A model generated the notes under the pieces. It had not been told where the DNA came from. It searched no databases and saw only the letters and a list, made by a program, of their open reading frames with translations. A stretch of DNA of 64,000 nt, taken from NCBI GenBank assembly GCA_000002445.1, contig AE017150.2, positions 1,024,001-1,088,000 on the forward strand. Reading direction: 5' to 3'. The stretch's first letter is position 1. Each line of letters starts with the position of its first letter. Positions 10,074 through 43,000 of this stretch are shown here, piece after piece. The DNA is from Trypanosoma brucei (lineage: Eukaryota). The position numbers were made by a program, and so were the translations under genes.

Positions 10074-13000
10074 ATGGGTGAAGCAGATGCGCCTTCTGGG
10101 GGTCAAGAATCAAACTACTTACCTGTGGCAGCCGTAGTGAACAGCGGAAGTGCATCAGGTTCAGGTGCTCACCGTGGTCCGAGACATCAACGTGAGAGAT
10201 CGGGCGGAAACGAAAACACTGAGAATGTACCTCCGCTGCCGAAGACTGGGCTAACCAATGCATCGTTCGTGAGGTTGGAGGATCCTCGTGATATTGGTGA
10301 GGCCACTTCTACCGAAATACTGTCTGAACCAGATGACGAAGAGGAACATTTGGTTACTTATCATGGCGTGAAGCTTAACGGGGACAATTGGGTTGACGTG
10401 CTGAGGGGATCGCGTGCTGTATTCGACGATGCCTTGGGTGCTGACGTATGCGATATGCTTGCGCTTCCTCGCAGTAGTGTGAGGGATGTAAAGGTGGGCG
10501 CTGATGGACAGTCGGTTATGTTTGGTGTGCGGCACCCCTTTTCACTACAAAAGGACGAAGTAAATAAGGCACTGGAGAGCTGCCGGTTTACCAGTACGTT
10601 GAAGTTGTACGATCTGCAAACTGATTCTGGTCCATTGGAAACTGACTCTCCCGTACTCAAGGCCTCTGAGAGTGCACCCCCATCGCTCCGTGACGAGGAG
10701 TCTTCACAGCATGGTGATATTAAGGGTGCCTCGTCTGTGAAAAAGATCAAACCTCGTAATCACAACATAGGTGCTTGTTCAATTACTGGCCATTCTGCTT
10801 CCGTTGAAGTGTTGTACGGTGCGATTTACGATGAAGACGCTGCCGTAACGCACCACCGCGTAAAGTTTAACGGCAACAATTGGGACTCTATTGTGCACCA
10901 CAAGGGTATGGCCATAAGGGAGGCGTTTGATACTGACGTGAGTAATGCGCTGGGTCTGCCCCGGGGCAGCGTGGAGGATGTGACATTGGCTCCTGATGGG
11001 CTTTCAATGAGTTTTAGTGTGCGACACCCAGCATCATTGCGGAGAAAAGATGTTAATAAAATTCTGGCGAAGTGCCCATTTGAGAACACATGGAGGTTAT
11101 ATGAATCAAAGAAATCTTTTAATAACTCCAGAGTTGCCTCTTTTGTGCTCAGATCGTCGGTGAACGCACCTCCATCGCTGAGGGCCGAAGAGGACGTAGG
11201 AGTGGTGCTGGGTGACTGGGACGCCAACCCACCCTTTGAATTTCTTGTCCCAGCTACTGCGTCACAGATGACGGTTGTGAGGCCCCCTAATGCAGCCAGT
11301 GGTGAATGTAACATTAACTCTATGCCCGATGATATCCTGATCAATACAGAAGGTGAAGGTTTTGGCACTGTAACACGTCATGAAGTAAAATTTGAGGGAG
11401 ACAATTGGGGTGTTGTGCATGAGAAGAAGCGTGTTGCATTTGATGAAGCATTCGACGCTGACATATGCGGTGCATTGGGCGTACCTCGGGGAAGTGTGGA
11501 GGATATGGTGTTAGCTTCTGATGGACAGTTGGTTTCGTTTGGTGTGCGGCATCCTGCCTCCTTAGGGAAAAAAGATATCAACAAAGCCCTATCGAGCTGC
11601 CCATTTGAAAACACATGGAAGTTGTATGAACCAAAGAAGTCCGCTTCTCCCTCGGAGCTCAACTCACCTGTTATGAAGGCCACTAAGGGTGAGCTTGCGC
11701 CACTGCGAGCGGGGGAAGTTGTGGGACCAACACCCTTGGAGGTAGGGGGGCCTCGTGACCTTGCTGCTGATGGTGCTACTGCAAAGACGTCCGGTCAACC
11801 CGTTGACGTAGAGACAAATGTACTAACGCGTCACCGTGTAAAGTTTCACGGAGACAATTGGGGTGTTGTGCATGAGAAGAAGCGTGTTGCATTTGATGAA
11901 GCATTCGACGCTGACATATGCGGTGCATTGGGCGTACCTCGGGGAAGTGTGGAGGATATGGTGTTAGCTTCTGATGGACAGTTGGTTTCGTTTGGTGTGC
12001 GGCATCCTGCCTCCTTAGGGAAAAAAGATATCAACAAAGCCCTATCGAGCTGCCCATTTGAAAACACATGGAAGTTGTATGAACCTAAGAAGTCCGCTTC
12101 TCCCTCGGAGCTCAACTCACCTGTTATGAAGGCCACTAAGGGTGAGCTTGCGCCACTGCGAGCGGGGGAAGTTGTGGGACCAACACCCTTGGAGGTAGGG
12201 GGGCCTCGTGACCTTGCTGCTGATGGTGCTACTGCAAAGACGTCCGGTCAACCCGTTGACGTAGAGACAAATGTACTAACGCGTCACCGTGTAAAGTTTC
12301 ACGGAGACAATTGGGGTGTTGTGCATGAGAAGAAGCGTGTTGCATTTGATGAAGCATTCGACGCTGACATATGCGGTGCATTGGGCGTACCTCGGGGAAG
12401 TGTGGAGGATATGGTGTTAGCTTCTGATGGACAGTTGGTTTCGTTTGGTGTGCGGCATCCTGCCTCCTTAGGGAAAAAAGATATCAACAAAGCCCTATCG
12501 AGCTGCCCATTTGAAAACACATGGAAGTTGTATGAACCAAAGAAGTCCGCTTCTCCCTCGGAGCTCAACTCACCTGTTATGAAGGCTACTAAGGGTGAGC
12601 TTGCGCCACTGCGAGCGGGGGAAGTTGTGGGACCAACACCCTTGGAGGTAGGGGGGCCTCGTGACCTTGCTGCTGATGGTGCTACTGCAAAGACGTCCGG
12701 TCAACCCGTTGAACGAGAGGATGGATGTGTAACTTCCCATGCTTTGAAGCTTGAGGGAGACAATTGGGGTGCTGTGTATGAAAAGAAGCGTGCTGCATTT
12801 GATGAAGCATTCGACGCTGACATATGTGATACACTGGGCGTACCTCGGGGAAGTGTGGAGGATATGGTGTTAGCTTCTGATGGACAGTTGGTTTCGTTTG
12901 GCGTGCGGCATCCTGCCTCCTTAGGGAAAAAAGATATCAACAAAGCCCTTTCGAGCTGCCCATTTGAAAACACATGGAAGTTGTATGAACCAAAGAAGTC

Positions 13001-16000
13001 CGCTTCTCCCTCGGAGCTCAACTCACCTGTTATGAAGGCCACTAAGGGTGAGCTTGCGCCACTGCGAGCGGGGGAAGTTGTGGGACCAACACCCTTGGAG
13101 GTAGGGGGGCCTCGTGACCTTGCTGCTGATGGTGCTACTGCAAAGACGTCCGGTCAACCCGTTGAACGAGAGGATGGATGTGTAACTTCCCATGCTTTGA
13201 AGCTTGAGGGAGACAATTGGGGTGCTGTGTATGAAAAGAAGCGTGCTGCATTTGATGAAGCATTCGACGCTGACATATGTGATACACTGGGCGTACCTCG
13301 GGGAAGTGTGGAGGATATGGTGTTAGCTTCTGATGGACAGTTGGTTTCGTTTGGTGTGCGGCATCCTGCCTCCTTAGGGAAAAAAGATATCAACAAAGCC
13401 CTTTCGAGCTGCCCATTTGAAAACACATGGAAGTTGTATGAACCTAAGAAGTCCGCTTCTCCCTCCAGGTTTGACTCTCTTGTTCTGATGACCACTAAGG
13501 GTGAGCTTGCGCCACTGCGAGCAGAGGAAGAGGCTGCCGGACCACTGCCCGATGCTTCCGATGCTTTTCCTTCAGCGACAGCCGCGGTATCTAATTTGTT
13601 GCCTGCAAAGGCAATAAGATCACGTTATTTTTCAAGTGGTGAGTGTAACATCACCACTAGTGGTGCTACCCCTATAGCCCTATATGGAGCGTTGTGTGAC
13701 AGTGACACTGTTGTCACACGGCACCGTGTGAGGTTTAATGGGGAAAACTGGGATTTGGTTTTACAACGCAGACGTGCAGAACTGGACGACGCGTTGGATG
13801 CTGATGTGAGCGAAGCGTTGGACCTGCCTCGAGGAAGCGTTAGTGATATTGAGTATGTACCCGACGGCCTTACTGCGTCGTTTGGTGTGCGGCATCCCGC
13901 GGCGTTCCGTAGGCGGGACATCGCGCGTTTACTTTCGAAGGGTCAGTTTGCGAATTTGTGGAAGATGTACCCACGCAGCAGAAATATTGATACTTTAGGG
14001 CCTTCGTTGTCCTCGTTGAAGGCATCGGAAAAAGCCCCGCCGAACATAGTAGGGGGGGAAGTCGTACCACCGGTCCCCAATTTTTGTCAGAGCCGTGCTA
14101 AGGTTGACGCGGCAGGACTTCCTACTCGCGCATCTGATACGGTTACTCCATCGGACTACACCAATGGTCAACAGTCAGTTATGAAAACGGAGAAGCGCGG
14201 CAGTGTTGTTGATGGAGGTGATACCATTATTACTTGCCACCGCGTAAAGCTGAGTGGAGCCAACTGGGTCGAGGTAGTTGAGACGAAACGGGCTGCATTC
14301 GACGAAGCATTCGATACCGATGTGTGTGAGGCATTGGGCTTCCCCTTGGGTTGTGTGGAGGATGTGCTGTTAGGTCCCGATGGTCATTCGGTTACGTTTG
14401 CGGTGCGCCACTCAGCCTCTTTGCAAAAGAGTGACGTCAAAAAGGTTCTTCGTCTTTGCCCATTTGCTAACACATTGCAGTTATACCATTCACGGAGAAC
14501 TCTCCCTTCTTCTGAGGTTGCATCCACCGTGCTTCGAGCAACTGAAAAGGAAAAACCTGCGCCGACACCGCGAAGCCACGGTTCAGCCAAACCTTCGACC
14601 GTAAAGGTGGCGGCGTCTTGTGACCTCGAGGGAAGGGGTGCTGACGGTGATCCAGCCTTCGTTGAAGTATTTAATGGACTGATCAGCGACGAAGATACCT
14701 TGGTAACACGCCATGGCGTACTGCTCAACGGAGAAAATTGGCTTAAATTACATGAAAGCAAATCTGCAGCGTTTAATGACGCATTCGATGCTGATGTGTG
14801 CGAGGCGCTGGGTCTTCCATGCGGCAATGTTGAAGGTATAAAGTTGAATCCCGACGGCCACCTAGTTACCTTCGGCGTTCGTCATCCTATTTCACAGCGG
14901 AGGGAGGATATCAACAGAGCTCTTGGAAAATGCAGATATCAGAATCTGATGAAATTGTACAACTCCCGTTCTGCTGTTTATTCCTGTGTCGCCACATCCC
15001 CCATGCTTAGAGCAACAGAGACGGCGCGCGCGGCGTTAGCGACCCAAGAGTCGATCTCACAACCTGCGGTCTCCGAGGTAGCCAATACAACATCGGTAGG
15101 GGTGGCGAAGTCGCGCAACCTTCTGGACGGAAGCGCGGCTGCGAGTAACTCTGCTTCTGTAGCCGGATTGCATGCTTTCCTTTCAGATCAGCCGGTTGTA
15201 ACCCAGCACGGTATAAAATTCAGCGGGGCCAACTGGGCTGATGTGATTGAAGGCCGTGCAATGTTTGACGACGCGCTTGATGCTGATGTGTGTGAGGCGG
15301 TGGGTCTTCCTCGAGGGAGCGTTGAAGACATACTACTAAGCTCTGATGGACGCTCCGTCGCCTTTGGTGTACGCCATCCTGCTTCCATAAGCAAAGGGGA
15401 TATCAATCAAGCACTTGATAACTGCAGATTTGTCAACACTTTGAGGTTGTATAATATGCGTTCTGCTGTTTATTCCTGTGTCGCCAAATCCCCCATGCTT
15501 AGAGCAACAGAGACGGCGCGCGCGGCGTTAGCGACCCAAGAGTCGATCTCACAACCTGCGGTCTCCGAGGTAGCCAATACAACATCGGTAGGGGTGGCGA
15601 AGTCGCGCAACCTTCTGGACGGAAGCGCGGCTGCGAGTAACTCTGCTTCTGTAGCCGGATTGCATGCTTTCCTTTCAGATCAGCCGGTTGTAACCCAGCA
15701 CGGTATAAAATTCAGCGGGGCCAACTGGGCTGATGTGATTGAAGGCCGTGCAATGTTTGACGACGCGCTTGATGCTGATGTGTGTGAGGCGGTGGGTCTT
15801 CCTCGAGGGAGCGTTGAAGACATACTACTAAGCTCTGATGGACGCTCCGTCGCCTTTGGTGTACGCCATCCTGCTTCCATAAGCAAAGGGGATATCAATC
15901 AAGCACTTGATAACTGCAGATTTGTCAACACTTTGAGGTTGTACGTCTCGCGATGCCCTCCCGTTGTTTATGAAGCCAGTCGACCACCACTAAAGGCTGC

Positions 16001-19000
16001 TGAGGCTGAGCAATTGTCACTAAAGGCTGCTGAAACGAAGCGACCACCACTAAAGGCTGCTGAGGCTGAGCAATCGTCACTAAAGGCTGCTGAAACGAAG
16101 CGACCACCACTAAAGGCTACTGAGGCTGAGCAATCGTCACTAAAGGCTGCTGAAACGAAGCGACCACCACTAAAGGCTGCTGAGGCTGAGCAATCGTCAC
16201 TAAAGGCTGCTGAAACGAAGCGACCACCACTAAAGGCTGCTGAGGTTGGGCGACCACCACTAAAAGCTACTGAGGCTGAGCAATCGTCACTAAAGGCTGC
16301 TGAAACGAAGCGACCACCACTAAAGGCTGCTGAGGTTGGGCGACCACCACTAAAAGCTACTGAGGCTGAGCAATCGTCACTAAAGGCTGCTGAAACGAAG
16401 CGACCACCACTAAAAGCTACTGAGGCTGAGCAATCGCCACTAAAGGTTACTGAAGCTAGGCGTGCACCACCAGCAAGAGCCACTGAGGTTGAGCGACCAC
16501 CTCTAAAAGTGGTGGAGATTAGCTCGCCAACGAGTTTCGTGGCGGGACCGAGGTCCGTGGGGCTCGTTAACCCCCCAAGTCTTGTGGATACAGGCATTAT
16601 TGGAAGTAGCTCTGCTTCATTTGACATACTGTATGGCTCCCTGAAAGACGAAGGGGCTGTGGTAACCGAATACCGTGCCAAGTTGAACGGGAGTCACTGG
16701 CGTGTTTTGCTGCAACACAGGTTCCTGGAGTTCGAGGAGGCCTTTTACGGTGATGTGTGTGATGCGCTGAGTCTTACGAAGGGGAGCGTGGACAACATGG
16801 AACTAGACTCTGATATGCAGGCATTTTCTTTTGGTGTGCGACATCGCAGGTCACTTGAACCGAGTGCTGTGTTACGTCAGTTGGGAGAATATCATTTTTC
16901 TAAAACTCGGGAATTTTGTGACTCACAAAAACGGTTTGGTGTCGTTGTTGATGATCATGACCAGCTCCTCACCCTAGAAATTGCTTCGAAACAGGAACTA
17001 CCGGAGGCTGATGATGGTTGCGACGAAGACTTGCGGCACTTGCAGACTTCAGGACGTAGTGATCTGCCTTCTTCGCCTTCGTCCCCACTGTGCATCAAGA
17101 AGACAAATACACGAACAATGCACTTTGGCAATACCGGTGCCGGCGCTGTACGTTTACCGAAGACCAGGAAATACGAGGCCGCTCCCGCGAACGCCACTGT
17201 GACGCAACACCGAGTTCAATTTGTCGCCGAGAACTGCGGTCATGTTGCCGATGAGACGCGGGAGAAGGTCCCCCAAGCACTGAATCTTGACGTCTGCGAC
17301 GCACTGGGCATTTCTTGGAAGTGCGTGGAGGAGGTAACGCTCAGCCCTGATGGAAGACTTGTGACATTTGGTGTGCGTCATTCGCCGAAAATGAGCCGTG
17401 CCGATGTGAGGAGCGCGCTCATAGCACACGATTTCCCATACACATGGAAAGTTTATGAACCGGATACGCTAGTTGAGTTCGAAAGCGGAGTTGAACGTAC
17501 TACCGCGGAACAAAAGTCACAAGCAACCCCGAAAGCAACGAGTACATCATCCATATATTTCTCTCCTTCTTCCGTCCCACCGTTCGTGAGAGTTGCTGAG
17601 CCTCAAAATTTTGTTAAGGACAGCTTTACTATAAGTAACACTGCCTCTTTGGAGGTGCTTCACACTGCAATCGGCGATGGCACTGTCGTAACAAAGCACC
17701 GTGTCAAATTCAATGGGGACAATTGGGGTGCTGTGCTTGAGAAGAAGCGTGCTGCATTTGATGAGGCGTTTGATGCCGACGTGTGTGATGCGTTAGACCT
17801 TCCTCGGGGAAGTGTGGAGGGGATAACGTTGGGCTCAGATGGCCTCTCAATTGACTTCGGTGTGAGACACCCCGCTTCGTTGCACAAGGATGAGGTGGAT
17901 CATTTTCTGTCGACCTCTGAGTTTCCTGCGATGTGGAACCTTTATGAGCCGAAGAAGAAGGTCTTGTCATCGATTGTCATGGGGGACACCGAAGAGCGTG
18001 AGACAACCTCTTTTAGTACTTCGCTGCCCCAACGCGCCTCTCCCGTCAGCGCCAAGGAGTTCCCATCTTGTTTGCACCCCGCTCCCGGGGTTGCGTCCAG
18101 CTCCGTTCCAATGGACCGCGCTGATGGTGCATCGGGTTCGGGTAATGTGTGCCACTTATACCGTGTTGGATTTGTGGGGGGTTTCTGGAGCGGCATCGTT
18201 GACAAGCGCTTTACTGCAGCAGTGGACTGCTTTATGCGTGATGCGGCTGTCGGAGAGGGTCTAGTCCCACGTAGTGTGGAGAGGGTTGTGTCGCTCGACT
18301 CTGGTAATGTTGTGTTTTCCGTCTGGATGGAGCATGCGGCTGCTCTGTCGCAGAGTGAAGTGTGCACAGCGATGGACAACGCCCCCTTTCCATCCATGTG
18401 GAAGCTATATGACGACTTGATCAATGAAGGTGTTGTCGGGCGGACCACGACGTTGCATCGCGTGGGTTTGGTGGGGTCTGAGTGGGCGCATGTGGCAAAC
18501 GTTGATCTGGTCAAAGAGGTATTTATCCAGGATGTTGCAGAGGCACTTCGCCTCAGTCCTGAGGATATAAATGTTAACGAGTACACAGTTAACGATAAGC
18601 TCGTCATCGGGTTCTACGTGAGCCATTCCCACACCTTAACAGAAGTAGATATCGACGATATGTTGGCTAATGCTCCACTCTCGCGTGTGTGGGGATTATG
18701 CCCGGTCCCTGGAACAAATTCCTGGAAAGCTGCACACTGCAAGGGTTCGGCAAGAAGCAACTCCGGTTCCTTTCCACATACCGAGCCCCTTCGTGGTGGC
18801 CGGTTTCGCGACCTTTCTCCAATACCCTTGTCGGGTGGGATTCCCGCTGAAACTCCGCACGACCGACGCTCAAATTCTCAATATCGGCGGTCGTTGGGAC
18901 CTCTTCAAGGCGTTGTATCCCCGCCGATGCGAAGGTATGATGGCCATAACCAGCACTCCGGCCGGTTCTATCAGGCAAATAAGCGGTCGCCGGGTCAATT

Positions 19001-19301
19001 CTCCCCCCCTAACCAACCAGTGGTGAATACGAAGGGAGTACATGCCATGAGAATGTCTCCACAAAGCGGCAGGTTTAAGGCAGGGAGCGCACGGGGCGGA
19101 GGGTCGCTGATTGCCGGATCTGACCCCGTTCGCGCATCGCTTCCCCGAGTGGATCTTTTGAAGGTGGGTGAGTTGCTTGCGCTGATGCGCCGGCGACAGT
19201 TGGAAGAGGGGTCCACTCGCCTTCCACCTTTGACTGGGAGGGCACAACCCTACCCCAGTTGTGCCCCCAGTACCGTAAAGCGATATGTGGGATCAAAGTG
19301 A
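10074..19301 (+). CDS. FLAM8: Giant repetitive flagellar protein, consistent with flagellar member 8 (FLAM8)
   Basis: A single ORF; from the first in-frame ATG (10074) it encodes exactly 3075 aa. It contains 17 divergent copies of an ~85-aa module ([HY]RVKF.G.NW..V.....AFD.AFD.DVC.ALGLPRGSVED..L..DG..V.FGVRHP.SL...D....L..C.F.N...LY), plus a block of 20-aa PPLKAAEAEQSSLKAAETKR repeats. The identification rests on the size match and on neighbouring genes (SBPase, SPT6, SmD2, HSP100), recalled from memory of the T. brucei chromosome 2 locus, not on a database search. Confidence 0.65.
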   Translation: MGEADAPSGGQESNYLPVAAVVNSGSASGSGAHRGPRHQRERSGGNENTENVPPLPKTGLTNASFVRLEDPRDIGEATSTEILSEPDDEEEHLVTYHGVKLNGDNWVDVLRGSRAVFDDALGADVCDMLALPRSSVRDVKVGADGQSVMFGVRHPFSLQKDEVNKALESCRFTSTLKLYDLQTDSGPLETDSPVLKASESAPPSLRDEESSQHGDIKGASSVKKIKPRNHNIGACSITGHSASVEVLYGAIYDEDAAVTHHRVKFNGNNWDSIVHHKGMAIREAFDTDVSNALGLPRGSVEDVTLAPDGLSMSFSVRHPASLRRKDVNKILAKCPFENTWRLYESKKSFNNSRVASFVLRSSVNAPPSLRAEEDVGVVLGDWDANPPFEFLVPATASQMTVVRPPNAASGECNINSMPDDILINTEGEGFGTVTRHEVKFEGDNWGVVHEKKRVAFDEAFDADICGALGVPRGSVEDMVLASDGQLVSFGVRHPASLGKKDINKALSSCPFENTWKLYEPKKSASPSELNSPVMKATKGELAPLRAGEVVGPTPLEVGGPRDLAADGATAKTSGQPVDVETNVLTRHRVKFHGDNWGVVHEKKRVAFDEAFDADICGALGVPRGSVEDMVLASDGQLVSFGVRHPASLGKKDINKALSSCPFENTWKLYEPKKSASPSELNSPVMKATKGELAPLRAGEVVGPTPLEVGGPRDLAADGATAKTSGQPVDVETNVLTRHRVKFHGDNWGVVHEKKRVAFDEAFDADICGALGVPRGSVEDMVLASDGQLVSFGVRHPASLGKKDINKALSSCPFENTWKLYEPKKSASPSELNSPVMKATKGELAPLRAGEVVGPTPLEVGGPRDLAADGATAKTSGQPVEREDGCVTSHALKLEGDNWGAVYEKKRAAFDEAFDADICDTLGVPRGSVEDMVLASDGQLVSFGVRHPASLGKKDINKALSSCPFENTWKLYEPKKSASPSELNSPVMKATKGELAPLRAGEVVGPTPLEVGGPRDLAADGATAKTSGQPVEREDGCVTSHALKLEGDNWGAVYEKKRAAFDEAFDADICDTLGVPRGSVEDMVLASDGQLVSFGVRHPASLGKKDINKALSSCPFENTWKLYEPKKSASPSRFDSLVLMTTKGELAPLRAEEEAAGPLPDASDAFPSATAAVSNLLPAKAIRSRYFSSGECNITTSGATPIALYGALCDSDTVVTRHRVRFNGENWDLVLQRRRAELDDALDADVSEALDLPRGSVSDIEYVPDGLTASFGVRHPAAFRRRDIARLLSKGQFANLWKMYPRSRNIDTLGPSLSSLKASEKAPPNIVGGEVVPPVPNFCQSRAKVDAAGLPTRASDTVTPSDYTNGQQSVMKTEKRGSVVDGGDTIITCHRVKLSGANWVEVVETKRAAFDEAFDTDVCEALGFPLGCVEDVLLGPDGHSVTFAVRHSASLQKSDVKKVLRLCPFANTLQLYHSRRTLPSSEVASTVLRATEKEKPAPTPRSHGSAKPSTVKVAASCDLEGRGADGDPAFVEVFNGLISDEDTLVTRHGVLLNGENWLKLHESKSAAFNDAFDADVCEALGLPCGNVEGIKLNPDGHLVTFGVRHPISQRREDINRALGKCRYQNLMKLYNSRSAVYSCVATSPMLRATETARAALATQESISQPAVSEVANTTSVGVAKSRNLLDGSAAASNSASVAGLHAFLSDQPVVTQHGIKFSGANWADVIEGRAMFDDALDADVCEAVGLPRGSVEDILLSSDGRSVAFGVRHPASISKGDINQALDNCRFVNTLRLYNMRSAVYSCVAKSPMLRATETARAALATQESISQPAVSEVANTTSVGVAKSRNLLDGSAAASNSASVAGLHAFLSDQPVVTQHGIKFSGANWADVIEGRAMFDDALDADVCEAVGLPRGSVEDILLSSDGRSVAFGVRHPASISKGDINQALDNCRFVNTLRLYVSRCPPVVYEASRPPLKAAEAEQLSLKAAETKRPPLKAAEAEQSSLKAAETKRPPLKATEAEQSSLKAAETKRPPLKAAEAEQSSLKAAETKRPPLKAAEVGRPPLKATEAEQSSLKAAETKRPPLKAAEVGRPPLKATEAEQSSLKAAETKRPPLKATEAEQSPLKVTEARRAPPARATEVERPPLKVVEISSPTSFVAGPRSVGLVNPPSLVDTGIIGSSSASFDILYGSLKDEGAVVTEYRAKLNGSHWRVLLQHRFLEFEEAFYGDVCDALSLTKGSVDNMELDSDMQAFSFGVRHRRSLEPSAVLRQLGEYHFSKTREFCDSQKRFGVVVDDHDQLLTLEIASKQELPEADDGCDEDLRHLQTSGRSDLPSSPSSPLCIKKTNTRTMHFGNTGAGAVRLPKTRKYEAAPANATVTQHRVQFVAENCGHVADETREKVPQALNLDVCDALGISWKCVEEVTLSPDGRLVTFGVRHSPKMSRADVRSALIAHDFPYTWKVYEPDTLVEFESGVERTTAEQKSQATPKATSTSSIYFSPSSVPPFVRVAEPQNFVKDSFTISNTASLEVLHTAIGDGTVVTKHRVKFNGDNWGAVLEKKRAAFDEAFDADVCDALDLPRGSVEGITLGSDGLSIDFGVRHPASLHKDEVDHFLSTSEFPAMWNLYEPKKKVLSSIVMGDTEERETTSFSTSLPQRASPVSAKEFPSCLHPAPGVASSSVPMDRADGASGSGNVCHLYRVGFVGGFWSGIVDKRFTAAVDCFMRDAAVGEGLVPRSVERVVSLDSGNVVFSVWMEHAAALSQSEVCTAMDNAPFPSMWKLYDDLINEGVVGRTTTLHRVGLVGSEWAHVANVDLVKEVFIQDVAEALRLSPEDINVNEYTVNDKLVIGFYVSHSHTLTEVDIDDMLANAPLSRVWGLCPVPGTNSWKAAHCKGSARSNSGSFPHTEPLRGGRFRDLSPIPLSGGIPAETPHDRRSNSQYRRSLGPLQGVVSPPMRRYDGHNQHSGRFYQANKRSPGQFSPPNQPVVNTKGVHAMRMSPQSGRFKAGSARGGGSLIAGSDPVRASLPRVDLLKVGELLALMRRRQLEEGSTRLPPLTGRAQPYPSCAPSTVKRYVGSK
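11385..13470 (+). repeat. 453-bp (151-aa) near-identical tandem repeats within FLAM8, about 4.6 copies in two sub-variants
   Basis: The string gacaattggggtgttgtgcatgagaagaagcgtgttgc recurs at 11400, 11853 and 12306 (spacing 453). A variant, gacaattggggtgctgtgtatgaaaagaagcgtgctgc, occurs at about 12759 and about 13212. Confidence 0.85.
14960..15945 (+). repeat. 492-bp (164-aa) perfect tandem duplication within FLAM8 (2 copies)
   Basis: ctgctgtttattcctgtgtcgcca occurs at 14971 and 15463, and the encoded 164-aa segment (YNSRSAVYSCVA...NTLRLY) is duplicated exactly. Confidence 0.85.
15981..16500 (+). repeat. 60-bp (20-aa) tandem repeats with 30-bp half-unit variants, encoding RPPLKAAEAEQSSLKAAETK
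   Basis: cgaccaccactaaaggctgctgaggctgagcaatcgtcactaaaggctgctgaaacgaag is repeated about 8 times, with Ala/Thr and Glu-Ala-Glu-Gln/Val-Gly variants. Confidence 0.85.
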
Positions 19302-35595: not shown

Positions 35596-38500
35596 ATGGT
35601 TGCCACGGAACAATCAAGAAGAGGACAAGATCCGTGTGGAGATGTAACCGACATACGAAAACCCTCCTCAATAGAGGCAGCGGAGCCTTCAGACTATTCG
35701 TCAAGCTCAGGCAATAGAGGTGAGGGCGGACGCGAATCTCGGGGTATTTGGGCATTCAAACGTGCATCATTAGTTTCGGTACCACAAACTCCCAAAACAC
35801 ATCAAGCTAGCTGGTCAACGAGCAATAGAGAAGGAAGAGGAGGAGGAAACAGACATCGTGTGTCATGGCACCAACATCTCGATCCCCATCCTAACACAGG
35901 AGCTTCGGTAGATGATGGAGCAACTTTCTGGAAAGTTCCTCGTAAAGTTTCTGAGGATCCTGAAGATAATATGTCGACTACACACTCAATTTCCACGAGT
36001 GTATCGGATCCAGTCTCCCCATCAGCAGCAAATGTGGTAGTCAAGTCTGCGACCGCCGAAAATATTTGTGTTGGAGCTTCAACCGACGGGGAAATGAAAG
36101 CAATGCCTCACAGTATGCTGCTTGATGGGGAAGTGTGGGAGTACATATATCTTAGAAAATCGTCAGAACTGCGGGATGCCTTTGCTTCTGATATTGGCGA
36201 TGTGTTAGGTTTTCCTTTTTCGACACCCATTGAGTTTACACCCACAAGAACTGGAATATTAGCGCACTGCACATTACTGTATCCTGAGACCATGAAAACT
36301 GAAGAGCTATACGAGAGGTTATCGCGAGACAAATTTCCCGCGATGAGAAGACTATATCAAACAGCAAAACGAGAGCACATGATAACAAGTTGCTCGACGA
36401 TGTACACCACGAACATTTCTGACAGGCCCATAAGTCCATCGCCGGAAGATATGGACGGACGCCGAGGCAGCATGCAAATGATGTCTTCTGCAACTAGTAC
36501 AAACCATAAACCTGAAGAATATTGTCTGTCAAAAAGGGAAGAAAGTAGAGATGCAACAAAAGAAGATGCGACGGGAATGGACACCGAATCGCAAGAAATT
36601 CATTATAGTCGTTTCACCGAACGGTCTATGAGTCGCATATCCATGGTTCCTGCTGATATCCGTGAGGCTGGTATGTCTAAGAGCCATGTTGTGACATCGC
36701 GTGCAGCCAGTCCCAGATGTGCCAAATGTCTTGATCAGTCTATGAGTCACATATCCATGGTTCCTGCTGATGTCCGTGAGGCTGGTATGTCTAAGAGCCA
36801 TGTTGAGCCATCGCGTGCAGCCAGTCCCAGATGTGCCAAATGTCTTGATCAGTCTATGAGTCGTATATCCATGGTTCCTGCTGATATCCGTGAGGCTGGT
36901 ATGTCTAAGAGCCATGTTGTGACATCGCGTGCAGCCAGTCCCAGATGTGCCAAATGTCTTGATCAGTCTATGAGTCACATATCCATGGTTCCTGCTGATA
37001 TCCGTGAGGCTGGTATGTCTAAGAGTGAGGTTGAACCATCTTTAGCAGCCAGTCTGAAATGTGGCAAATGTCTTGATCAGTCTATGAGTCGCATATCCAC
37101 ATTGCCTGCTGATATCCGTGAGGCTGGTATGTCTAAGAGCCATGTTGTGACATCGCGTGCAGCCAGTCCCAGATGTGCCAAATGTCTTGATCAGTCTATG
37201 AGTCGCCCATCCACATTGCCTGCTGATATCCGTGAGGCTGGTATGTCTAAGAGCCATGTTGTGACATCGCGTGCAGCCAGTCCCAGATGTGCCAAATGTC
37301 TTGATCAGTCTATGAGTCGCCAATCGACATTGCCTGCTGATATCCGTGAGGCTGGTATGTCTAAGAGTGAGGTTGAGCCATCTTTAGCAGCCAGTCTGAA
37401 ATGTGGCAAATGTCTTGATCAGTCTATGAGTCGCATATCTATGATGCCTGCTGATGTCCGTGAGGCTGGTATGTCTAAGAGTGAGGTTGAGCCATCTTTA
37501 GCAGCCAGTCTGAAATGTGGCAAGTGTCTTGGTCAGTCTATGAGTCGCATATCTATGATGCCTGCTGATGTCCGTGAGGCTGGTATGTCTAAGAGCCATG
37601 TTGTGACATCGCGTGCAGCCAGTCCCAGATGTGCCAAATGTCTTGATCAGTCTATGAGTCGCATATCTATGATGCCTGCTGATGTCCGTGAGGCTGGTAT
37701 GTCTAAGAGCCATGTTGTGACATCGCGTGCAGCCAGTCCCAGATGTGCCAAATGTCTTGATCAGTCTATGAGTCGCATATCTATGATGCCTGCTGGTGTC
37801 CGTGAGGCTGGTATGTCTAAGAGCCATGTTGTGACATCGCGTGCAGCCAGTCCCAGATGTGCCAAATGTCTTGATCAGTCTATGAGTCGCATATCTATGA
37901 TGCCTGCTGATGTCCGTGAGGCTGGTATGTCTAAGAGCCATGTTGTGACATCGCGTGCAGCCAGTCCCAGATGTGCCAAATGTCTTGATCAGTCTATGAG
38001 TCGCATATCTATGATGCCTGCTGATGTCCGTGAGGCTGGTATGTCTAAGAGCCATGTTGTGACATCGCGTGCAGCCAGTCCCAGATGTGCCAAATGTCTT
38101 GATCAGTCTATGAGTCACATATCCATGGTTCCTGCTGATGTCCGTGAGGCTGGTATGTCTAAGAGCCATGTTGTGACATCGCGTGCAGCCAGTCCCAGAT
38201 GTGCCAAATGTCTTGATCAGTCTATGAGTCACATATCCATGGTTCCTGCTGATGTCCGTGAGGCTGGTATGTCTAAGAGCCATGTTGTGACATCGCGTGC
38301 AGCCAGTCCCAGATGTGCCAAATGTCTTGATCAGTCTATGAGTCGCATATCTATGATGCCTGCTGATGTCCGTGAGGCTGGTATGTCTAAGAGCCATGTT
38401 GTGACATCGCGTGCAGCCAGTCCCAGATGTGCCAAATGTCTTGATCAGTCTATGAGTCGCTCATCCACATTGCCTGCTGATGTCCGTGAGGCTGGTATGT

Positions 38501-39324
38501 CTAAGAGCCATGTAGTGACATCGCGTGCAGCCAGTCCCAGATGTGCCAAATGTCTTGATCAGTCTATGAGTCGCATATCTATGATGCCTGCTGATGTCCG
38601 TGAGGCTGGTATGTCTAAGAGCCATGTTGTGACATCGCGTGCAGCCAGTCCCAGATGTGCCAAATGTCTTGATCAGTCTATGAGTCGCATATCCACATTG
38701 CCTGCTGATATCCGTGAGGCTGGTATGTCTAAGAGCCATGTTGTGACATCGCGTGCAGCCAGTCCCAGATGTGCCAAATGTCTTGATCAGTCTATGAGTC
38801 ACATATCCATGGTTCCTGCTGATGTCCGTGAGGCTGGTATGTCTAAGAGTGAGGTTGAACCATCTTTAGCAGCCAGTCTGAGATGTGCCAAATGTCTTGA
38901 TCAGTCTATGAGTCGCATATCCACATTGCCTGCTGATATCCGTGAGGCTGGTATGTCTAAGAGCCATGTTGTGACATCGCGTGCAGCCAGTCCCAGATGT
39001 GCCAAATGTCTTGATCAGTCTATGAGTCGCATATCTATGATGCCTGCTGATGTCCGTGAGGCTGGTATGTCTAAGAGCCATGTTGTGACATCGCGTGCAG
39101 CCAGTCCCAGATGTGCCAAATGTCTTGATCAGTCTATGAGTCGCATATCCACATTGCCTGCTGATATCCGTGAGGCTGGTATGTCTAAGAGCCATGTTGT
39201 GACATCGCGTGCAGCCAGTCCCAGATGTGCCAAATGTCTTGATCAGTCTATGAGTCACATATCCATGGTTCCTGCTGATGTCCGTGAGGCTGGTATGTCT
39301 AAGAGTGAGGTTGAGCCATCGTGA
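35596..39324 (+). CDS. 38-aa-repeat protein, part 1: unique N-terminus, an NW/AFD-type domain, then about 24 copies of a 38-aa repeat; ends at an in-frame TGA inside a repeat
   Basis: ATG at 35596. The unique region is followed by the domain DGEVWEYIYLRKSSELRDAFASDIGDVLGFPFSTPIEFTPTRTGILAHCTLLYPE...LY, then 114-bp repeats encoding SMSRISMMPADVREAGMSKSHVVTSRAASPRCAKCLDQ. The architecture (more than 50 38-aa repeats) is reminiscent of trypanosome MARP-type microtubule-associated repetitive proteins, but I cannot confirm identity. Confidence 0.6.
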   Translation: MVATEQSRRGQDPCGDVTDIRKPSSIEAAEPSDYSSSSGNRGEGGRESRGIWAFKRASLVSVPQTPKTHQASWSTSNREGRGGGNRHRVSWHQHLDPHPNTGASVDDGATFWKVPRKVSEDPEDNMSTTHSISTSVSDPVSPSAANVVVKSATAENICVGASTDGEMKAMPHSMLLDGEVWEYIYLRKSSELRDAFASDIGDVLGFPFSTPIEFTPTRTGILAHCTLLYPETMKTEELYERLSRDKFPAMRRLYQTAKREHMITSCSTMYTTNISDRPISPSPEDMDGRRGSMQMMSSATSTNHKPEEYCLSKREESRDATKEDATGMDTESQEIHYSRFTERSMSRISMVPADIREAGMSKSHVVTSRAASPRCAKCLDQSMSHISMVPADVREAGMSKSHVEPSRAASPRCAKCLDQSMSRISMVPADIREAGMSKSHVVTSRAASPRCAKCLDQSMSHISMVPADIREAGMSKSEVEPSLAASLKCGKCLDQSMSRISTLPADIREAGMSKSHVVTSRAASPRCAKCLDQSMSRPSTLPADIREAGMSKSHVVTSRAASPRCAKCLDQSMSRQSTLPADIREAGMSKSEVEPSLAASLKCGKCLDQSMSRISMMPADVREAGMSKSEVEPSLAASLKCGKCLGQSMSRISMMPADVREAGMSKSHVVTSRAASPRCAKCLDQSMSRISMMPADVREAGMSKSHVVTSRAASPRCAKCLDQSMSRISMMPAGVREAGMSKSHVVTSRAASPRCAKCLDQSMSRISMMPADVREAGMSKSHVVTSRAASPRCAKCLDQSMSRISMMPADVREAGMSKSHVVTSRAASPRCAKCLDQSMSHISMVPADVREAGMSKSHVVTSRAASPRCAKCLDQSMSHISMVPADVREAGMSKSHVVTSRAASPRCAKCLDQSMSRISMMPADVREAGMSKSHVVTSRAASPRCAKCLDQSMSRSSTLPADVREAGMSKSHVVTSRAASPRCAKCLDQSMSRISMMPADVREAGMSKSHVVTSRAASPRCAKCLDQSMSRISTLPADIREAGMSKSHVVTSRAASPRCAKCLDQSMSHISMVPADVREAGMSKSEVEPSLAASLRCAKCLDQSMSRISTLPADIREAGMSKSHVVTSRAASPRCAKCLDQSMSRISMMPADVREAGMSKSHVVTSRAASPRCAKCLDQSMSRISTLPADIREAGMSKSHVVTSRAASPRCAKCLDQSMSHISMVPADVREAGMSKSEVEPS

Positions 39325-40053
39325 GCAGCCAGTCTGAGATGTGCCAAATGTCTTGATCAGTCTATGAGTCGCATATCCACATTGCCTGCTGATATCCGTG
39401 AGGCTGGTATGTCTAAGAGCCATGTTGTGACATCGCGTGCAGCCAGTCCCAGATGTGCCAAATGTCTTGATCAGTCTATGAGTCGCATATCTATGATGCC
39501 TGCTGATGTCCGTGAGGCTGGTATGTCTAAGAGCCATGTTGTGACATCGCGTGCAGCCAGTCCCAGATGTGCCAAATGTCTTGATCAGTCTATGAGTCGC
39601 ATATCCACATTGCCTGCTGATATCCGTGAGGCTGGTATGTCTAAGAGCCATGTTGTGACATCGCGTGCAGCCAGTCCCAGATGTGCCAAATGTCTTGATC
39701 AGTCTATGAGTCACATATCCATGGTTCCTGCTGATGTCCGTGAGGCTGGTATGTCTAAGAGCCATGTTGTGACATCGCGTGCAGCCAGTCCCAGATGTGC
39801 CAAATGTCTTGATCAGTCTATGAGTCGCTCATCGACATTGCCTGCTGATGTCCGTGAGGCTGGTATGTCTAAGAGTGAGGTTGAACCATCTTTAGCAGCC
39901 AGTCTGAGATGTGCCAAATGTCTTGATCAGTCTATGAGTCGCTCATCGACATTGCCTGATGATGTCCGTGAGGCTGGTATGTCTAAGAGTGAGGTTGAAC
40001 CATCTTTAGCAGCCAGTTCCAGATGTGCCAAATGTCTTGATCAGTCTATGAGT
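36616..40053 (+). repeat. 114-bp tandem repeat array 1, about 30 copies; the SHVVTSRAASPRCAK subfamily predominates
   Basis: tctatgagtcgcatatcc recurs at 114-bp intervals (for example 36625 and 36739). The array reads through the stop at 39322. Confidence 0.9.
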
Positions 40054-43000
40054 GTTGGGTCTGATTTTGTTTCTGTTTTGTTAGTTGGTGGTGTAAATGA
40101 AGTTGGCAACGACCGCTCTGGTTTCCAAAGGAAACGGTACCCCGTGTCGTGGCACAAACATTGTGATGGTCCTTCGCCGTTGCGATCTTTGTGTGATGAT
40201 GGGGCAACTTTCTGGAAAGTTCCTCGTAAAGTTTCTGAGGATCCTGAAGATAATATGTCGACTGCACACTCAATTTCCACGAGTGTATCGGATCCAGTCT
40301 CCCCATCAGCAGTAAATGTGGTGGTAAAGTACAGTGGAGCCGAAAATATTTGTGTTGGAGCTTCAACCGACGGGGAAATGAAAGCAATGCCTCACACCAT
40401 GCTGCTTGATGGGGAAGTGTGGGAGTACATATATCTTAGAAAATCGTCAGAACTGCGGGATGCCTTTGCTTCTGATATTGGCGATGTGTTAGGTTTTCCT
40501 TTTTCGACACCCATTGAGTTTACACCCACAAGAACTGGAATATTAGCGCACTGTACATTACTGTATCCTGAGACCATGAAAACTGAAGAGCTATACGAGA
40601 GGTTATCGCGAGACAAATTTCCCGCGATGAGAAGACTATATCAAACAGCAAAACGAGAGCAGATGATAACAAGTTGCTCGACGATGTACACCACGAACAT
40701 TTGTGACAGGCCCATAAGTCCACCGCCGGAAGATATGGACGGACGCCGAGGCAGCATGCAAATGATGTCTTCTGCAACTAGTACAAACCATAAACCTGAA
40801 GAATATTGTCTGTCAAAAAGGGAAGAAAGAAGAGATGCAACTAAAGAAGATGCGACGGGAATGGACACCGAATCGCAAGAAATTCATTATAGTCGTTTCA
40901 CCGAACGGTCTATGAGTCGCATATCCATGGTTCCTGCTGATGTCCGTGAGGCTGGTATGTCTAAGAGTGAGGTTGAACCATCTTTAGCAGCCAGTCTGAG
41001 ATGTGCCAAATGTCTTGATCAGTCTATGAGTCACATATCTATGATGCCTGCTGATGTCCGTGAGGCTGGTATGTCTAAGAGTGAGGTTGAGCCATCTTTA
41101 GCAGCCAGTCTGAGATGTGCCAAATGTCTTGATCAGTCTATGAGTCGCATATCTATGATGCCTGCTGATGTCCGTGAGGCTGGTATGTCTCAGAGCCAAA
41201 TTGGAACATTACCCGCAACTATTCCCGTTTATTGCCCACAATTGCTTGAGCGCTGTATGAGCTGTGCTTCTACTATACTTGCTGATGTCCGTGAGGCTGG
41301 TATGTCTCAGAGCCAGATTGGAACATTACCCGCAAGTATTCCCGTTTATTGCCCACAATTGCTTGAGCGCTGTATGAGCTGTGCTTCTACTATACTTGCT
41401 GATGTCCGTGAGGCTGGTATGTCTCAGAGCCAGATTGGAACATTACCCGCAACTATTCCCGTTTATTGCCCACAATTGCTTGAGCGCTGTATGAGCTGTG
41501 CTTCTACTATACTTGCTGATGTCCGTGAGGCTGGTATGTCTCAGAGCCAGATTGGAACATTACCCGCAACTATTCCCGTTTATTGCCCACAATTGCTTGA
41601 GCGCTGTATGAGCTGTGCTTCTACTATACTTGCTGATGTCCGTGAGGCTGGTATGTCTAAGAGTGAGGTTGAACCATCTTTAGCAGCCAGTCCCAGATGT
41701 GCCAAATGTCTTGATCAGTCTATGAGTCGCATATCTATGATGCCTGCTGATGTCCGTGAGGCTGGTATGTCTAAGAGTGAGGTTGAACCATCTTTAGCAG
41801 CCAGTCTGAGATGTGGCAAATGTCTTGATCAGTCTATGAGTCGCATATCTATGATGCCTGCTGATATCCGTGAGGCTGGTATGTCTAAGAGTGAGGTTGA
41901 ACCATCTTTAGCAGCCAGTCTGAAATATGGCAAATGTCTTGATCAGTCTATGAGTCGCATATCTATGATGCCTGCTGATGTCCGTGAGGCTGGTATGTCT
42001 AAGAGTGAGGTTGAACCATCTTTAGCAGCCAGTCTGAGATGTGGCAAATGTCTTGATCAGTCTATGAGTCGCATATCTATGATGCCTGCTGATATCCGTG
42101 AGGCTGGTATGTCTAAGAGTGAGGTTGAACCATCTTTAGCAGCCAGTCTGAGATGTGGCAAATGTCTTGATCAGTCTATGAGTCGCATATCTATGATGCC
42201 TGCTGATGTCCGTGAGGCTGGTATGTCTAAGAGTGAGGTTGAACCATCTTTAGCAGCCAGTCTGAGATGTGGCAAATGTCTTGATCAGTCTATGAGTCGC
42301 ATATCTATGATGCCTGCTGATGTCCGTGAGGCTGGTATGTCTAAGAGTGAGGTTGAACCATCTTTAGCAGCCAGTCTGAGATGTGCCAAATGTCTTGATC
42401 AGTCTATGAGTCGCATATCTATGATGCCTGCTGATATCCGTGAGGCTGGTATGTCTAAGAGTGAGGTTGAACCATCTTTAGCAGCCAGTCTGAAATATGG
42501 CAAATGTCTTGATCAGTCTATGAGTCGCATATCTATGATGCCTGCTGATGTCCGTGAGGCTGGTATGTCTAAGAGTGAGGTTGAACCATCTTTAGCAGCC
42601 AGTCTGAGATGTGCCAAATGTCTTGATCAGTCTATGAGTCGCATATCTATGATGCCTGCTGATATCCGTGAGGCTGGTATGTCTAAGAGTGAGGTTGAAC
42701 CATCTTTAGCAGCCAGTCTGAAATATGGCAAATGTCTTGATCAGTCTATGAGTCGCATATCTATGATGCCTGCTGATATCCGTGAGGCTGGTATGTCTAG
42801 GAGTGAGGTTGAACCATCTTTAGCAGCCAGTCTGAAATATGGCAAATGTCTTGATCAGTCTATGAGTCGCATATCTATGATGCCTGCTGATGTCCGTGAG
42901 GCTGGTATGTCTAAGAGTGAGGTTGAACCATCTTTAGCAGCCAGTCTGAAATATGGCAAATGTCTTGATCAGTCTATGAGTCGCATATCTATGATGCCTG

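What the first reader, a model, noticed from the sequence alone, without database searches (positions are those of the whole stretch)
10074..19301. An ~85-aa 'NW...AFD.AFD.DVC.ALGLPRGSVE...FGVRHP...LY' module, repeated 17 times in FLAM8 and present at the head of the 38-aa-repeat protein
The 17 FLAM8 copies range from near-identical 453-bp tandem units to highly diverged C-terminal copies (for example YRVGFVGGFWSGIV...). The same module opens both halves of the downstream 38-aa-repeat gene (35596-45342): MLLDGEVWEYIYLRKSSELRDAFASDIGDVLGFPFSTPIEFTPTRTGILAHCTLLYPETMKTEELYERLSRDKFPAMRRLYQ (about 36110-36365 and 40390-40650). Two large repetitive, probably cytoskeletal or flagellar, proteins 16 kb apart therefore share a kinetoplastid-type domain that I do not recognise as a named family. 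The conserved 'FGVRHP' and acidic 'AFDEAFDADVC' stretches suggest a structured binding module, not low-complexity sequence.
Basis: seen in the sequence. Interest (0 to 1): 0.7.

Follow-up and report, generated by a model that had tools for sequence, protein, structure and literature searches.

The report
Known FAZ1-type domain in two flagellar-tip proteins
The repeated ~90-residue module is real and folded, but it is the already catalogued trypanosomatid "FAZ1 conserved domain" (Pfam PF23398), and both genes that carry it here, FLAM8 and Tb927.2.5860/5870, are published flagellar-tip proteins of Trypanosoma brucei.

Summary
The window is Trypanosoma brucei brucei TREU927 chromosome 2. The ORF at 10074-19301 is identical to XP_951724 (FLAM8, Tb927.2.5760, 3075 aa).

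The module does have a name. It is Pfam PF23398 "FAZ1_cons" (FLAM8 1349 bits in 17 stretches; heads 39.6 and 39.7 bits against a cut-off of 27.5). It was formerly Pfam-B PB000506 ("PFAMB506"). Sunter 2015 described it in nine T. brucei cytoskeletal proteins including FLAM8, and Calvo-Alvarez 2021 noted its repetition in FLAM8.

The 38-aa-repeat ORFs are Tb927.2.5860 and Tb927.2.5870. Published work treats them as one gene split in TREU927. Here the split is a single TGA where 26 sister repeat units have TTA. TrypTag places the protein at the flagellar tip, it tops an AC1 proximity proteome, and it serves as a tip marker.

The parts
10074..19301 (+). FLAM8 (Tb927.2.5760) coding sequence, 3075 aa
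   Evidence: The sequence is in the protein collection as XP_951724.1/Q586D0 of T. b. brucei TREU927, on a 1,193,948-bp contig. Its length and 151-aa repeat match PMC8459223.
10353..10628 (+). FAZ1_cons module 1
   Evidence: Own HMM, 121 bits. One of 17 Pfam PF23398 stretches.
10845..11120 (+). FAZ1_cons module 2
   Evidence: Own HMM, 137 bits.
11370..11645 (+). FAZ1_cons module 3, the first in the 453-bp tandem array
   Evidence: Own HMM, 145 bits. Tandem array.
11823..12098 (+). FAZ1_cons module 4
   Evidence: Own HMM, 146 bits.
12276..12551 (+). FAZ1_cons module 5
   Evidence: Own HMM, 146 bits.
12729..13004 (+). FAZ1_cons module 6
   Evidence: Own HMM, 142 bits.
13182..13457 (+). FAZ1_cons module 7
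   Evidence: Own HMM, 142 bits.
13713..13988 (+). FAZ1_cons module 8
   Evidence: Own HMM, 119 bits.
14229..14504 (+). FAZ1_cons module 9
   Evidence: Own HMM, 130 bits.
14703..14978 (+). FAZ1_cons module 10
   Evidence: Own HMM, 124 bits.
15195..15470 (+). FAZ1_cons module 11, in the 492-bp duplication
   Evidence: Own HMM, 127 bits. TRF array 14967-15943, 2.0 copies at 99%.
15687..15962 (+). FAZ1_cons module 12, in the 492-bp duplication
   Evidence: Own HMM, 125 bits.
15981..16457 (+). Array of 20/30-aa 'RPPLKAAEAEQSSLKAAETK' repeats between modules 12 and 13. It is an amplified form of the linker motif.
   Evidence: TRF period 60/90, 5-8 copies. Translation. Linker table.
16662..16937 (+). 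FAZ1_cons module 13
   Evidence: Own HMM, 109 bits.
17199..17474 (+). FAZ1_cons module 14
   Evidence: Own HMM, 113 bits.
17688..17963 (+). FAZ1_cons module 15. It gives the best match to the Pfam model and is the copy that was modelled.
   Evidence: Best Pfam stretch, aa 2568-2657 of the 3106-aa translation. AlphaFold2 pLDDT 89.9.
18147..18422 (+). FAZ1_cons module 16 (diverged, 'YRVGFVGGFWSGIV')
   Evidence: Own HMM, 94 bits.
18441..18716 (+). FAZ1_cons module 17 (most diverged)
   Evidence: Own HMM, 76 bits.
35596..39324 (+). Tb927.2.5860 as annotated in TREU927 (1242 aa). It is the 5' part of the tip-protein gene.
   Evidence: ORF length of 1242 aa equals the Tb927.2.5860 length in the supplementary table of PMC8445201. 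The neighbours 5830 (307 aa), 5850 (111 aa) and 5890 (452 aa) also match.
36109..36369 (+). FAZ1_cons domain of head 1
   Evidence: Pfam PF23398, 39.6 bits, E 4.9e-10, cut-off 27.5. FLAM8-only HMM, 28.8 bits. AlphaFold2 pLDDT 94.2.
36624..40053 (+). First array of 114-bp (38-aa) repeats, about 30 copies
   Evidence: TRF. Translation.
39322..39324 (+). In-frame TGA that splits the gene into 5860 and 5870
   Evidence: The same codon position is TTA (Leu) in 26 other repeat units of this type. PMC8445201 reports one gene in Lister 427.
39364..45342 (+). Tb927.2.5870 as an ORF (1992 aa from the first ATG). It is the 3' part of the same gene and includes a unique ~545-aa C-terminal tail.
40393..40653 (+). 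FAZ1_cons domain of head 2 (internal duplicate)
   Evidence: Pfam, 39.7 bits. FLAM8-only HMM, 28.0 bits. The segment 40195-40967 is 97.4% identical to 35911-36683.
40908..43712 (+). Second array of 114-bp repeats, about 24.5 copies, with a 117-bp variant block at 41163-41663
   Evidence: TRF.

Best explanation
The module is the trypanosomatid 'FAZ1 conserved domain' (Pfam PF23398, earlier Pfam-B PB000506). It is a ~90-residue domain that is predicted to fold on its own into an alpha+beta structure (strand-helix-helix-strand-strand-helix-helix). It occurs in giant repetitive proteins of the trypanosome cytoskeleton and flagellum.

In FLAM8 (Tb927.2.5760), 17 copies are strung together by 56-84-aa low-complexity linkers. 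The array grew partly by recent tandem duplication (453-bp and 492-bp units).

In the neighbouring gene Tb927.2.5860/5870, the ancestral layout is one copy at the head of a 38-aa repeat array. The TREU927 sequence carries a second, 97% identical head from an internal duplication, and a single TGA that splits the annotation into two genes. Both proteins are published flagellar-tip proteins.

Inferred, not shown: the domain is a structural protein-protein docking unit that ties large scaffold proteins to microtubule-based cytoskeletal structures. In FLAM8 its multiplicity would provide a multivalent platform, in line with FLAM8's published role in keeping CARP3 at the tip. The domain does not by itself specify the address. 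Family members sit at different structures, and neither half of Tb927.2.5860/5870 reaches the tip alone, although each carries a copy in this sequence.
For: Shown here:
- The window proteins are identical to T. b. brucei TREU927 proteins.
- Pfam PF23398 scores 1349 bits in 17 stretches in FLAM8, and 39.6 and 39.7 bits in the two heads, against a cut-off of 27.5.
- An HMM built from FLAM8 copies alone recovers both heads.
- The family has 307 representative clusters, with up to 24 copies per protein counted here. All 13 named samples are trypanosomatids.
- Family-wide conservation falls mostly on hydrophobic core positions, plus G14, W17, T6, H8, D35 and H65.
- P0037 (T. congolense TCIL3000_2_1530) and P0167 each have one N-terminal head. 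In P0167 it is followed by 38-aa repeats of a different sequence.

From papers:
- The domain is in nine T. brucei proteins, all associated with the cytoskeleton (PMC4406125; PMC4827413).
- Its repetition in FLAM8 was noted and its function was described as unknown (PMC8459223).
- CARP3 tip localisation depends on FLAM8 (PMC9481589).
- Tb927.2.5860/5870 is one gene and its product is at the tip. Tags that break the gene give a cytoplasmic signal (PMC8445201).
- The two gene IDs are the top entries of the AC1 proximity proteome (PMC8141408), and the protein serves as a bloodstream-form tip marker (PMC9826329).
Against: - No partner of the domain is known, and no binding was tested.
- Family members localise to different structures (FAZ filament, flagellar tip, posterior end, paraflagellar rod), so a single common ligand is not obvious.
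- The second head may be an assembly artefact. The Lister 427 gene is shorter (2788 aa against 3248 codons). If so, the argument that neither half is sufficient applies only to the first half.
- The AlphaFold2 alignments were shallow (19 rows, mostly paralogous copies).
Confidence: 0.85

Rival explanations
1. The domain is an autonomous address label. One copy would be enough to send a protein to a given cytoskeletal site, here the axonemal plus ends at the flagellar tip.
For: Two neighbouring tip proteins share it. [quoted passage not shown]
Against: Most family members are in the FAZ filament or elsewhere, not at a tip. The truncated 5860 part (head 1 plus repeats) and the truncated 5870 part (head 2, repeats and tail) both give a cytoplasmic signal in TrypTag (PMC8445201). 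The head domain is no closer to FLAM8 modules than to modules of other family members.
Confidence: 0.07
2. The similarity between FLAM8 modules and the heads of the 38-aa-repeat gene is a composition or repeat artefact, not homology.
For: Pairwise identity is low, at 15-24%. Repeat-rich proteins did produce spurious Pfam hits in the same scan, for example AAA_lid_At3g28540 with no individual stretch.
Against: A curated Pfam model scores 12 bits above its gathering cut-off over model positions 6-92 of 93. An independent HMM and a single-sequence phmmer search give E about 1e-8. The family's signature positions H8, G14, W17, A31/F32 and D35 are kept, while H65 is Tyr in the head. The AlphaFold2 models match. 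The head is unique sequence, not a repeat.
Confidence: 0.01
3. The domain is a small-ligand or metal-binding sensor, not an inert scaffold unit, and uses the conserved His/His/Asp/Thr positions. That would fit the cAMP-signalling microdomain at the tip.
Against: No sequence or profile match to any ligand-binding family. The tip-protein head has Tyr in place of H65, so the putative site is not universal. I could not check the 3D proximity of these residues, because the tool does not return coordinates.
Confidence: 0.05

Closest known systems
Pfam PF23398 FAZ1_cons (formerly Pfam-B PB000506, 'PFAMB506'), as in T. brucei FAZ1, FAZ4, FAZ6, FAZ8, FAZ10, GB4, PFC20 and Tb927.10.870
   Same: The sequence family is the same, with scores above the curated cut-off in both genes. 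Its setting in large, repetitive, cytoskeleton-associated proteins and its trypanosomatid distribution also match.
   Different: Nothing differs for FLAM8, which is one of the published members. Tb927.2.5860/5870 is not among the nine proteins listed in 2015, probably because of the split annotation. It does meet the current Pfam model, and its T. congolense orthologue already carries a precomputed PF23398 hit.
SEA domains (mucin-16, TMPRSS, enteropeptidase type) and related ferredoxin-like alpha/beta sandwiches, including the cytoplasmic domain of MscS
   Different: Sequence identity is only 4-13%, and there is no Pfam SEA match. SEA domains are extracellular, whereas these proteins are intraflagellar. 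The model shows three strands and a C-terminal helix where a fourth strand would be. Foldseek finds nothing significant. This is a resemblance of fold, not membership.
MARP-1/MARP-2, microtubule-associated repetitive proteins of T. brucei with 38-aa repeats
   Same: The repeat period of 38 aa is the same as in Tb927.2.5860/5870, and both are high-molecular-weight cytoskeletal proteins (PMC12114266).
   Different: I did not compare the sequences because no MARP sequence was available. MARPs decorate the microtubules of the cell body and flagellum, whereas this protein is at the flagellar tip. This is a lead only.

Membership tests
Pfam PF23398 FAZ1_cons | Whole-protein score above Pfam's gathering cut-off of 27.5 bits | tested here: met
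   FLAM8 scores 1349.1 bits in 17 stretches. Head 1 scores 39.6 bits (E 4.9e-10) and head 2 scores 39.7 bits, each over model positions 6-92 of 93.
Pfam PF23398 FAZ1_cons | The FLAM8 modules and the heads of the 38-aa-repeat gene share one fold | tested here: met
Pfam PF23398 FAZ1_cons | Restriction to kinetoplastids | tested here: inconclusive
   All 13 named cluster samples are Trypanosomatidae: Trypanosoma, Leishmania, Porcisia, Angomonas, Leptomonas and Lotmaria. PMC4406125 states that FAZ proteins are absent outside kinetoplastids.
FLAM8 (Tb927.2.5760) | Sequence identity with the published protein | tested here: met
   The sequence matches XP_951724.1/Q586D0 exactly, and T. equiperdum members of its cluster are named 'Flagellar Member 8'. 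It has 3075 aa and a 151-aa unit repeated at 442-592 and 593-743, as in PMC8459223. Here the period is 453 bp.
Tb927.2.5860/5870 (flagellar-tip marker protein) | Position and length in TREU927 chromosome 2 | tested here: met
   The order and lengths 307 aa (5830), 111 aa (5850, SmD2), 1242 aa (5860) and 452 aa (5890) match the window ORFs exactly. The exact protein look-up of the two ORFs found nothing in the collection, so identity rests on synteny and length.
Tb927.2.5860/5870 (flagellar-tip marker protein) | Flagellar-tip localisation | not testable with these tools
   This comes from papers only: TrypTag data in PMC8445201, PMC8141408 and PMC9826329.
SEA domain | Sequence-profile match and the four-stranded beta-alpha-beta-beta-alpha-beta sandwich of extracellular proteins | tested here: not met
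MARP-type 38-aa microtubule-binding repeats | Sequence similarity of the repeat unit to MARP-1/2 | not tested
   Only the 38-aa period is shared. No MARP sequence was at hand.

The most novel reading that the evidence does not exclude
FAZ1_cons domains associate with one another or with a common tip component. FLAM8 with its 17 copies and Tb927.2.5860/5870 with one or two copies would then co-assemble into a single multivalent scaffold at the axonemal plus ends, which organises the CARP3/adenylate-cyclase signalling microdomain. The conserved T6/H8/D35/H65 positions would form the interface. Nothing found here excludes this. The two proteins co-occur in the AC1 proximity proteome, but no interaction has been shown.
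Probability: 0.12. Interest if true: 0.45.

Novelty: already known. Interest (0 to 1): 0.15.

Why it matters
It matters little as a discovery. The domain has been in Pfam-B since at least 2013 and is now in Pfam-A. Its repetition in FLAM8 is in print, and the second gene is a routinely used flagellar-tip marker.

Three modest points add value:
- Tb927.2.5860/5870 belongs to the same domain family as FLAM8 and the FAZ proteins. It was not in the published list of nine.
- Both kinds of copy are predicted with high confidence to fold into the same compact alpha+beta domain, which is ferredoxin/SEA-like at fold level only.
- Published tagging data, read together with the domain map, argue that one copy is not enough for tip targeting.

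The function of the domain is still unknown. It marks many of the giant cytoskeletal proteins that shape trypanosomes, so a binding partner would be useful to the field.

Tried and rejected
- Word-indexed homologue searches with full-length FLAM8, with a head-plus-tail chimera of the repeat protein, and with the module alignment returned 1, 1 and 0 hits. They did not return even the T. brucei proteins themselves. The exhaustive profile search was needed instead.
- The exact look-up of the two 38-aa-repeat ORFs found nothing in the collection. Contig look-ups gave only T. equiperdum contigs that break at the repeat array, so neither the second head nor the TGA could be checked in another strain.
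- I considered GB4 as the identity of the 38-aa-repeat protein and rejected it. GB4 is Tb427tmp.160.1200 and has 600-nt repeats.
- A special kinship between the head and the FLAM8 modules, such as local gene duplication, is rejected. FLAM8 modules score about 30 bits, the same as modules from many other family members.
- A PDB sequence-profile search gave no hit better than E 0.1. Foldseek against PDB gave nothing at E <= 0.001. The afdb50 library was not available.
- I treat three weak Pfam hits as repeat or composition artefacts. DUF5893 (31.3 bits) and AAA_lid_At3g28540 (31.7 bits) have no individual stretch that passes. Extensin_1 scores far below its cut-off.
Full report
**Origin of the window.** Eight of ten proteins translated from the window are present, residue for residue, in the protein collection as proteins of Trypanosoma brucei brucei TREU927. 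They lie on a 1,193,948-bp contig. They include sedoheptulose-1,7-bisphosphatase, an SPT6-like protein and HSP100/ClpB. The window is therefore a stretch of T. brucei chromosome 2. I read ORFs with the standard code, counting from the first ATG.

**Check of the observation.** The ORF 9981-19301 has its first ATG at 10074 and then encodes 3075 aa.
- A motif scan and an alignment show 17 copies of a ~92-aa module.
- An HMM built from these copies scores each at 76-146 bits.
- Tandem Repeats Finder shows how the array grew. There are 4.7 copies of a 453-bp unit at 96% matches (11385-13530), a 492-bp duplication at 99% (14967-15943), and a 60/90-bp array (15981-16457).
- The same HMM contains no sequence from the downstream gene. 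It hits exactly two further places in the six-frame translation of the whole window: 36109-36369 (28.8 bits, E 4.5e-8) and 40393-40653 (28.0 bits, E 8e-8).
- A single-sequence phmmer search of the head against FLAM8 gives per-domain E-values down to 2.8e-8.

**What the module is.** Pfam-A contains it as PF23398, 'FAZ1, conserved domain'.
- FLAM8 scores 1349 bits in 17 stretches.
- The two heads score 39.6 and 39.7 bits, against a gathering cut-off of 27.5, over model positions 6-92 of 93.
- UniProt already names the 3075-aa protein 'Flagellar attachment zone protein 1 conserved domain-containing protein'.
- The family goes back to Pfam-B PB000506. Sunter et al. 2015 reported 'PFAMB506' in only nine T. 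brucei proteins. These were FAZ proteins plus GB4, PFC20, FLAM8 and Tb927.10.870, all associated with the cytoskeleton. The authors used the domain to predict and confirm FAZ8 (PMC4406125; table in PMC4827413).
- Calvo-Alvarez et al. 2021 explicitly discuss 'the repetition of PFAMB506 domains' in FLAM8. They suggest a role in interactions with cytoskeletal partners and say that the function is unknown (PMC8459223).

**Identity of the two genes.** The 3075-aa protein is XP_951724.1/Q586D0. T. equiperdum members of its cluster are called 'Flagellar Member 8'. The published FLAM8 has 3075 aa and a 151-aa sequence repeated at residues 442-592 and 593-743, which is the 453-bp period seen here.

The supplementary table of Cosentino et al. 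2021 lists Tb927.2.5830 (307 aa), 5850 (111 aa), 5860 (1242 aa) and 5890 (452 aa) in that order. The window has ORFs of exactly these lengths in that order. Tb927.2.5850 is SmD2, and the gene at the matching position in the T. equiperdum locus is an LSM-fold gene. So ORF 35596-39324 is Tb927.2.5860, and the next ORF is Tb927.2.5870.

That paper shows that the two are one gene in Lister 427 (Tb427_020030800, 2788 aa). It also reports TrypTag data. An N-terminal tag on 5860 and a C-terminal tag on 5870 give a very specific flagellar-tip signal, whereas tags placed at the false internal boundary give a cytoplasmic signal (PMC8445201).

In the window the two ORFs form one frame of 3248 codons broken by a single TGA at 39322-39324. 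The same codon is TTA in 26 other repeat units of this type.

Tb927.2.5860 and 5870 are the two most enriched entries in the proximity proteome of the tip adenylate cyclase AC1, ahead of FLAM8 (PMC8141408). Tb427.02.5860 is used as a flagellum-tip marker in bloodstream forms (PMC9826329).

**The two heads.** Segments 35911-36683 and 40195-40967 are 97.4% identical over 776 nt. The T. congolense orthologue (P0037, TCIL3000_2_1530, 44% identical) has a single N-terminal head, and it already carries a precomputed PF23398 hit. A more distant relative, P0167, has one N-terminal head followed by 38-aa repeats of a different sequence.

The ancestral layout is therefore one head plus a 38-aa array. 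The second head in TREU927 is either a recent internal duplication or an assembly artefact. The Lister 427 gene is about 460 codons shorter, and I could not decide between these two.

**Structure.** AlphaFold2 on an alignment of the window's copies plus three trypanosomatid relatives gives a confident model for FLAM8 module 15 (pLDDT 89.9, pTM 0.81; strand 3-11, helices 17-23 and 25-40, strands 47-52 and 58-66, helices 71-79 and 84-90). It gives an equally confident model for the head of 5860 (pLDDT 94.2, pTM 0.84) with the same order of elements. The module is not disordered.
- The two neighbour lists overlap. They include SEA domains (2e7v, 1ivz, 7sa9), SEA-like domains of CELSR1 and SorCS2, and the cytoplasmic alpha/beta domain of MscS channels, all at 3-13% identity.
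- Foldseek against PDB finds nothing at E <= 0.001, and a sequence profile finds no solved relative.

The fold belongs to the very common ferredoxin-like alpha/beta sandwich class. That is a fold resemblance and says nothing about function.

The linkers between FLAM8 modules are 56-84 aa long, apart from 234 aa across the short-repeat array and 4 aa between the last two modules. They are rich in P, S, T, A, G, E, K and Q. The protein is best pictured as beads on a string.

**Distribution.** A profile search of 1.84 billion representative proteins finds 307 clusters at E <= 0.001 and 75 at E <= 1e-30. Among the best hits I counted 35 single-copy proteins, 87 with 2-4 copies, and 16 with ten or more, up to 24. 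All 13 sampled clusters that carry an organism name are trypanosomatids.

Across 476 unique domain instances, the conserved positions are mainly hydrophobic, plus G14, W17, Y90 and the polar T6, H8, D35 and H65. The 5860 head keeps H8, G14, W17 and D35 but has Tyr at position 65. The head is no closer to FLAM8 modules than to modules from other family members (about 30 bits in each case). The 16-kb proximity of the two genes is therefore not evidence of a recent common origin.

**How it most likely works.** Shown or published:
- The domain is predicted to be a folded unit found in large cytoskeleton-associated proteins.
- FLAM8 stays on axonemal tips after detergent extraction.
- FLAM8 is required for CARP3 to concentrate at the tip (PMC9481589).

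Inferred:
- The domain is a structural docking unit, and its 17-fold repetition gives FLAM8 multivalency.
- It is probably not an address label. Family members occupy different structures. In addition, the truncated 5860 part (head 1 plus repeats) and the truncated 5870 part (head 2, repeats and tail) both mislocalise to the cytoplasm. The caveat is that head 2 may not exist in the tagged strain.
- A sensor role using the conserved His/Asp positions cannot be excluded, but nothing supports it.

**Verdict.** The feature is nevertheless already catalogued and published, and both proteins have known localisations. The only small additions are these: the tip marker Tb927.2.5860/5870 is placed in the FAZ1_cons family, fold predictions are given for both kinds of copy, and published tagging data are read against the domain map. 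Novelty is 'already known', and interest is low.

Noticed in passing
window 10629-10700, 11121-11190, 11646-11710 and after most other FLAM8 modules; amplified at 15981-16457: Most FLAM8 modules are followed at once by a short conserved linker motif, of the type 'SPVLKASESAPPSLRDEE', 'SPVMKATKGELAPLRAGE' or 'SPMLRATETA'. The 20/30-aa 'RPPLKAAEAEQSSLKAAETK' array between modules 12 and 13 looks like an amplified version of it. The weak whole-protein Pfam hit to DUF5893 (31.3 bits, best stretch aa 355-390, no single stretch passing) falls on this motif. It may be a short linear motif in its own right.
   Followed up: partly
window about 10794-10847, and upstream of modules 8, 10, 11, 12, 13 and 15: Several modules are preceded by a conserved extension outside the Pfam model boundary ('SASVEVLYGAIYDEDAAVT', 'FVEVFNGLISDEDTLVT', 'SFDILYGSLKDEGAVVT', 'SLEVLHTAIGDGTVVT'). 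The AlphaFold2 model of the core shows only three strands, so this extension might supply a fourth.
   Followed up: no
window 39322-39324: A single TGA replaces the TTA (Leu) found at the same position in 26 other repeat units. This one base creates the 5860/5870 split in the TREU927 annotation. Whether it is a real allele or a sequencing error could not be checked.
   Followed up: partly
window 41163-41663: Within the second 114-bp array there is a block of 4.3 copies of a 117-bp (39-aa) variant unit at 98% matches ('...SQSQIGTLPATIPVYCPQLLERCMSCASTILADVREAGM'). Its middle part is unrelated to the standard unit.
   Followed up: no
P0167 (656 aa), residues about 480-656; window 36624-43712: A distant orthologue-like protein has one N-terminal FAZ1_cons head followed by repeats that also have a 38-aa period but a largely different sequence ('DDERSLAQESIASLPPREAVMVDNRSISSYPVQARLRT'). 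The period thus seems more conserved than the sequence. MARP-1/2, microtubule-binding proteins of T. brucei, also use 38-aa repeats (PMC12114266). No sequence comparison with MARPs was made.
   Followed up: partly
window 39364-41001 (translated): Pfam reports AAA_lid_At3g28540 at 31.7 bits, above its cut-off of 27, but with no individual stretch passing. I take it to be an artefact of summing weak hits over the 38-aa repeats.
   Followed up: no
window 22357-23355, 24219-28850, 34748-35083, 47806-49164, 60458-63070: The neighbouring genes are ordinary housekeeping genes of T. brucei chromosome 2: sedoheptulose-1,7-bisphosphatase, an SPT6-like protein, SmD2 (Tb927.2.5850), an Fe2OG-dioxygenase-domain protein (Tb927.2.5890) and HSP100/ClpB. 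All are on the + strand, as expected for a polycistronic unit.
   Followed up: partly
window 63261-63393: A TAT-rich low-complexity tract (period 3 and 21) lies just after the HSP100 gene, presumably in intergenic or UTR sequence.
   Followed up: no
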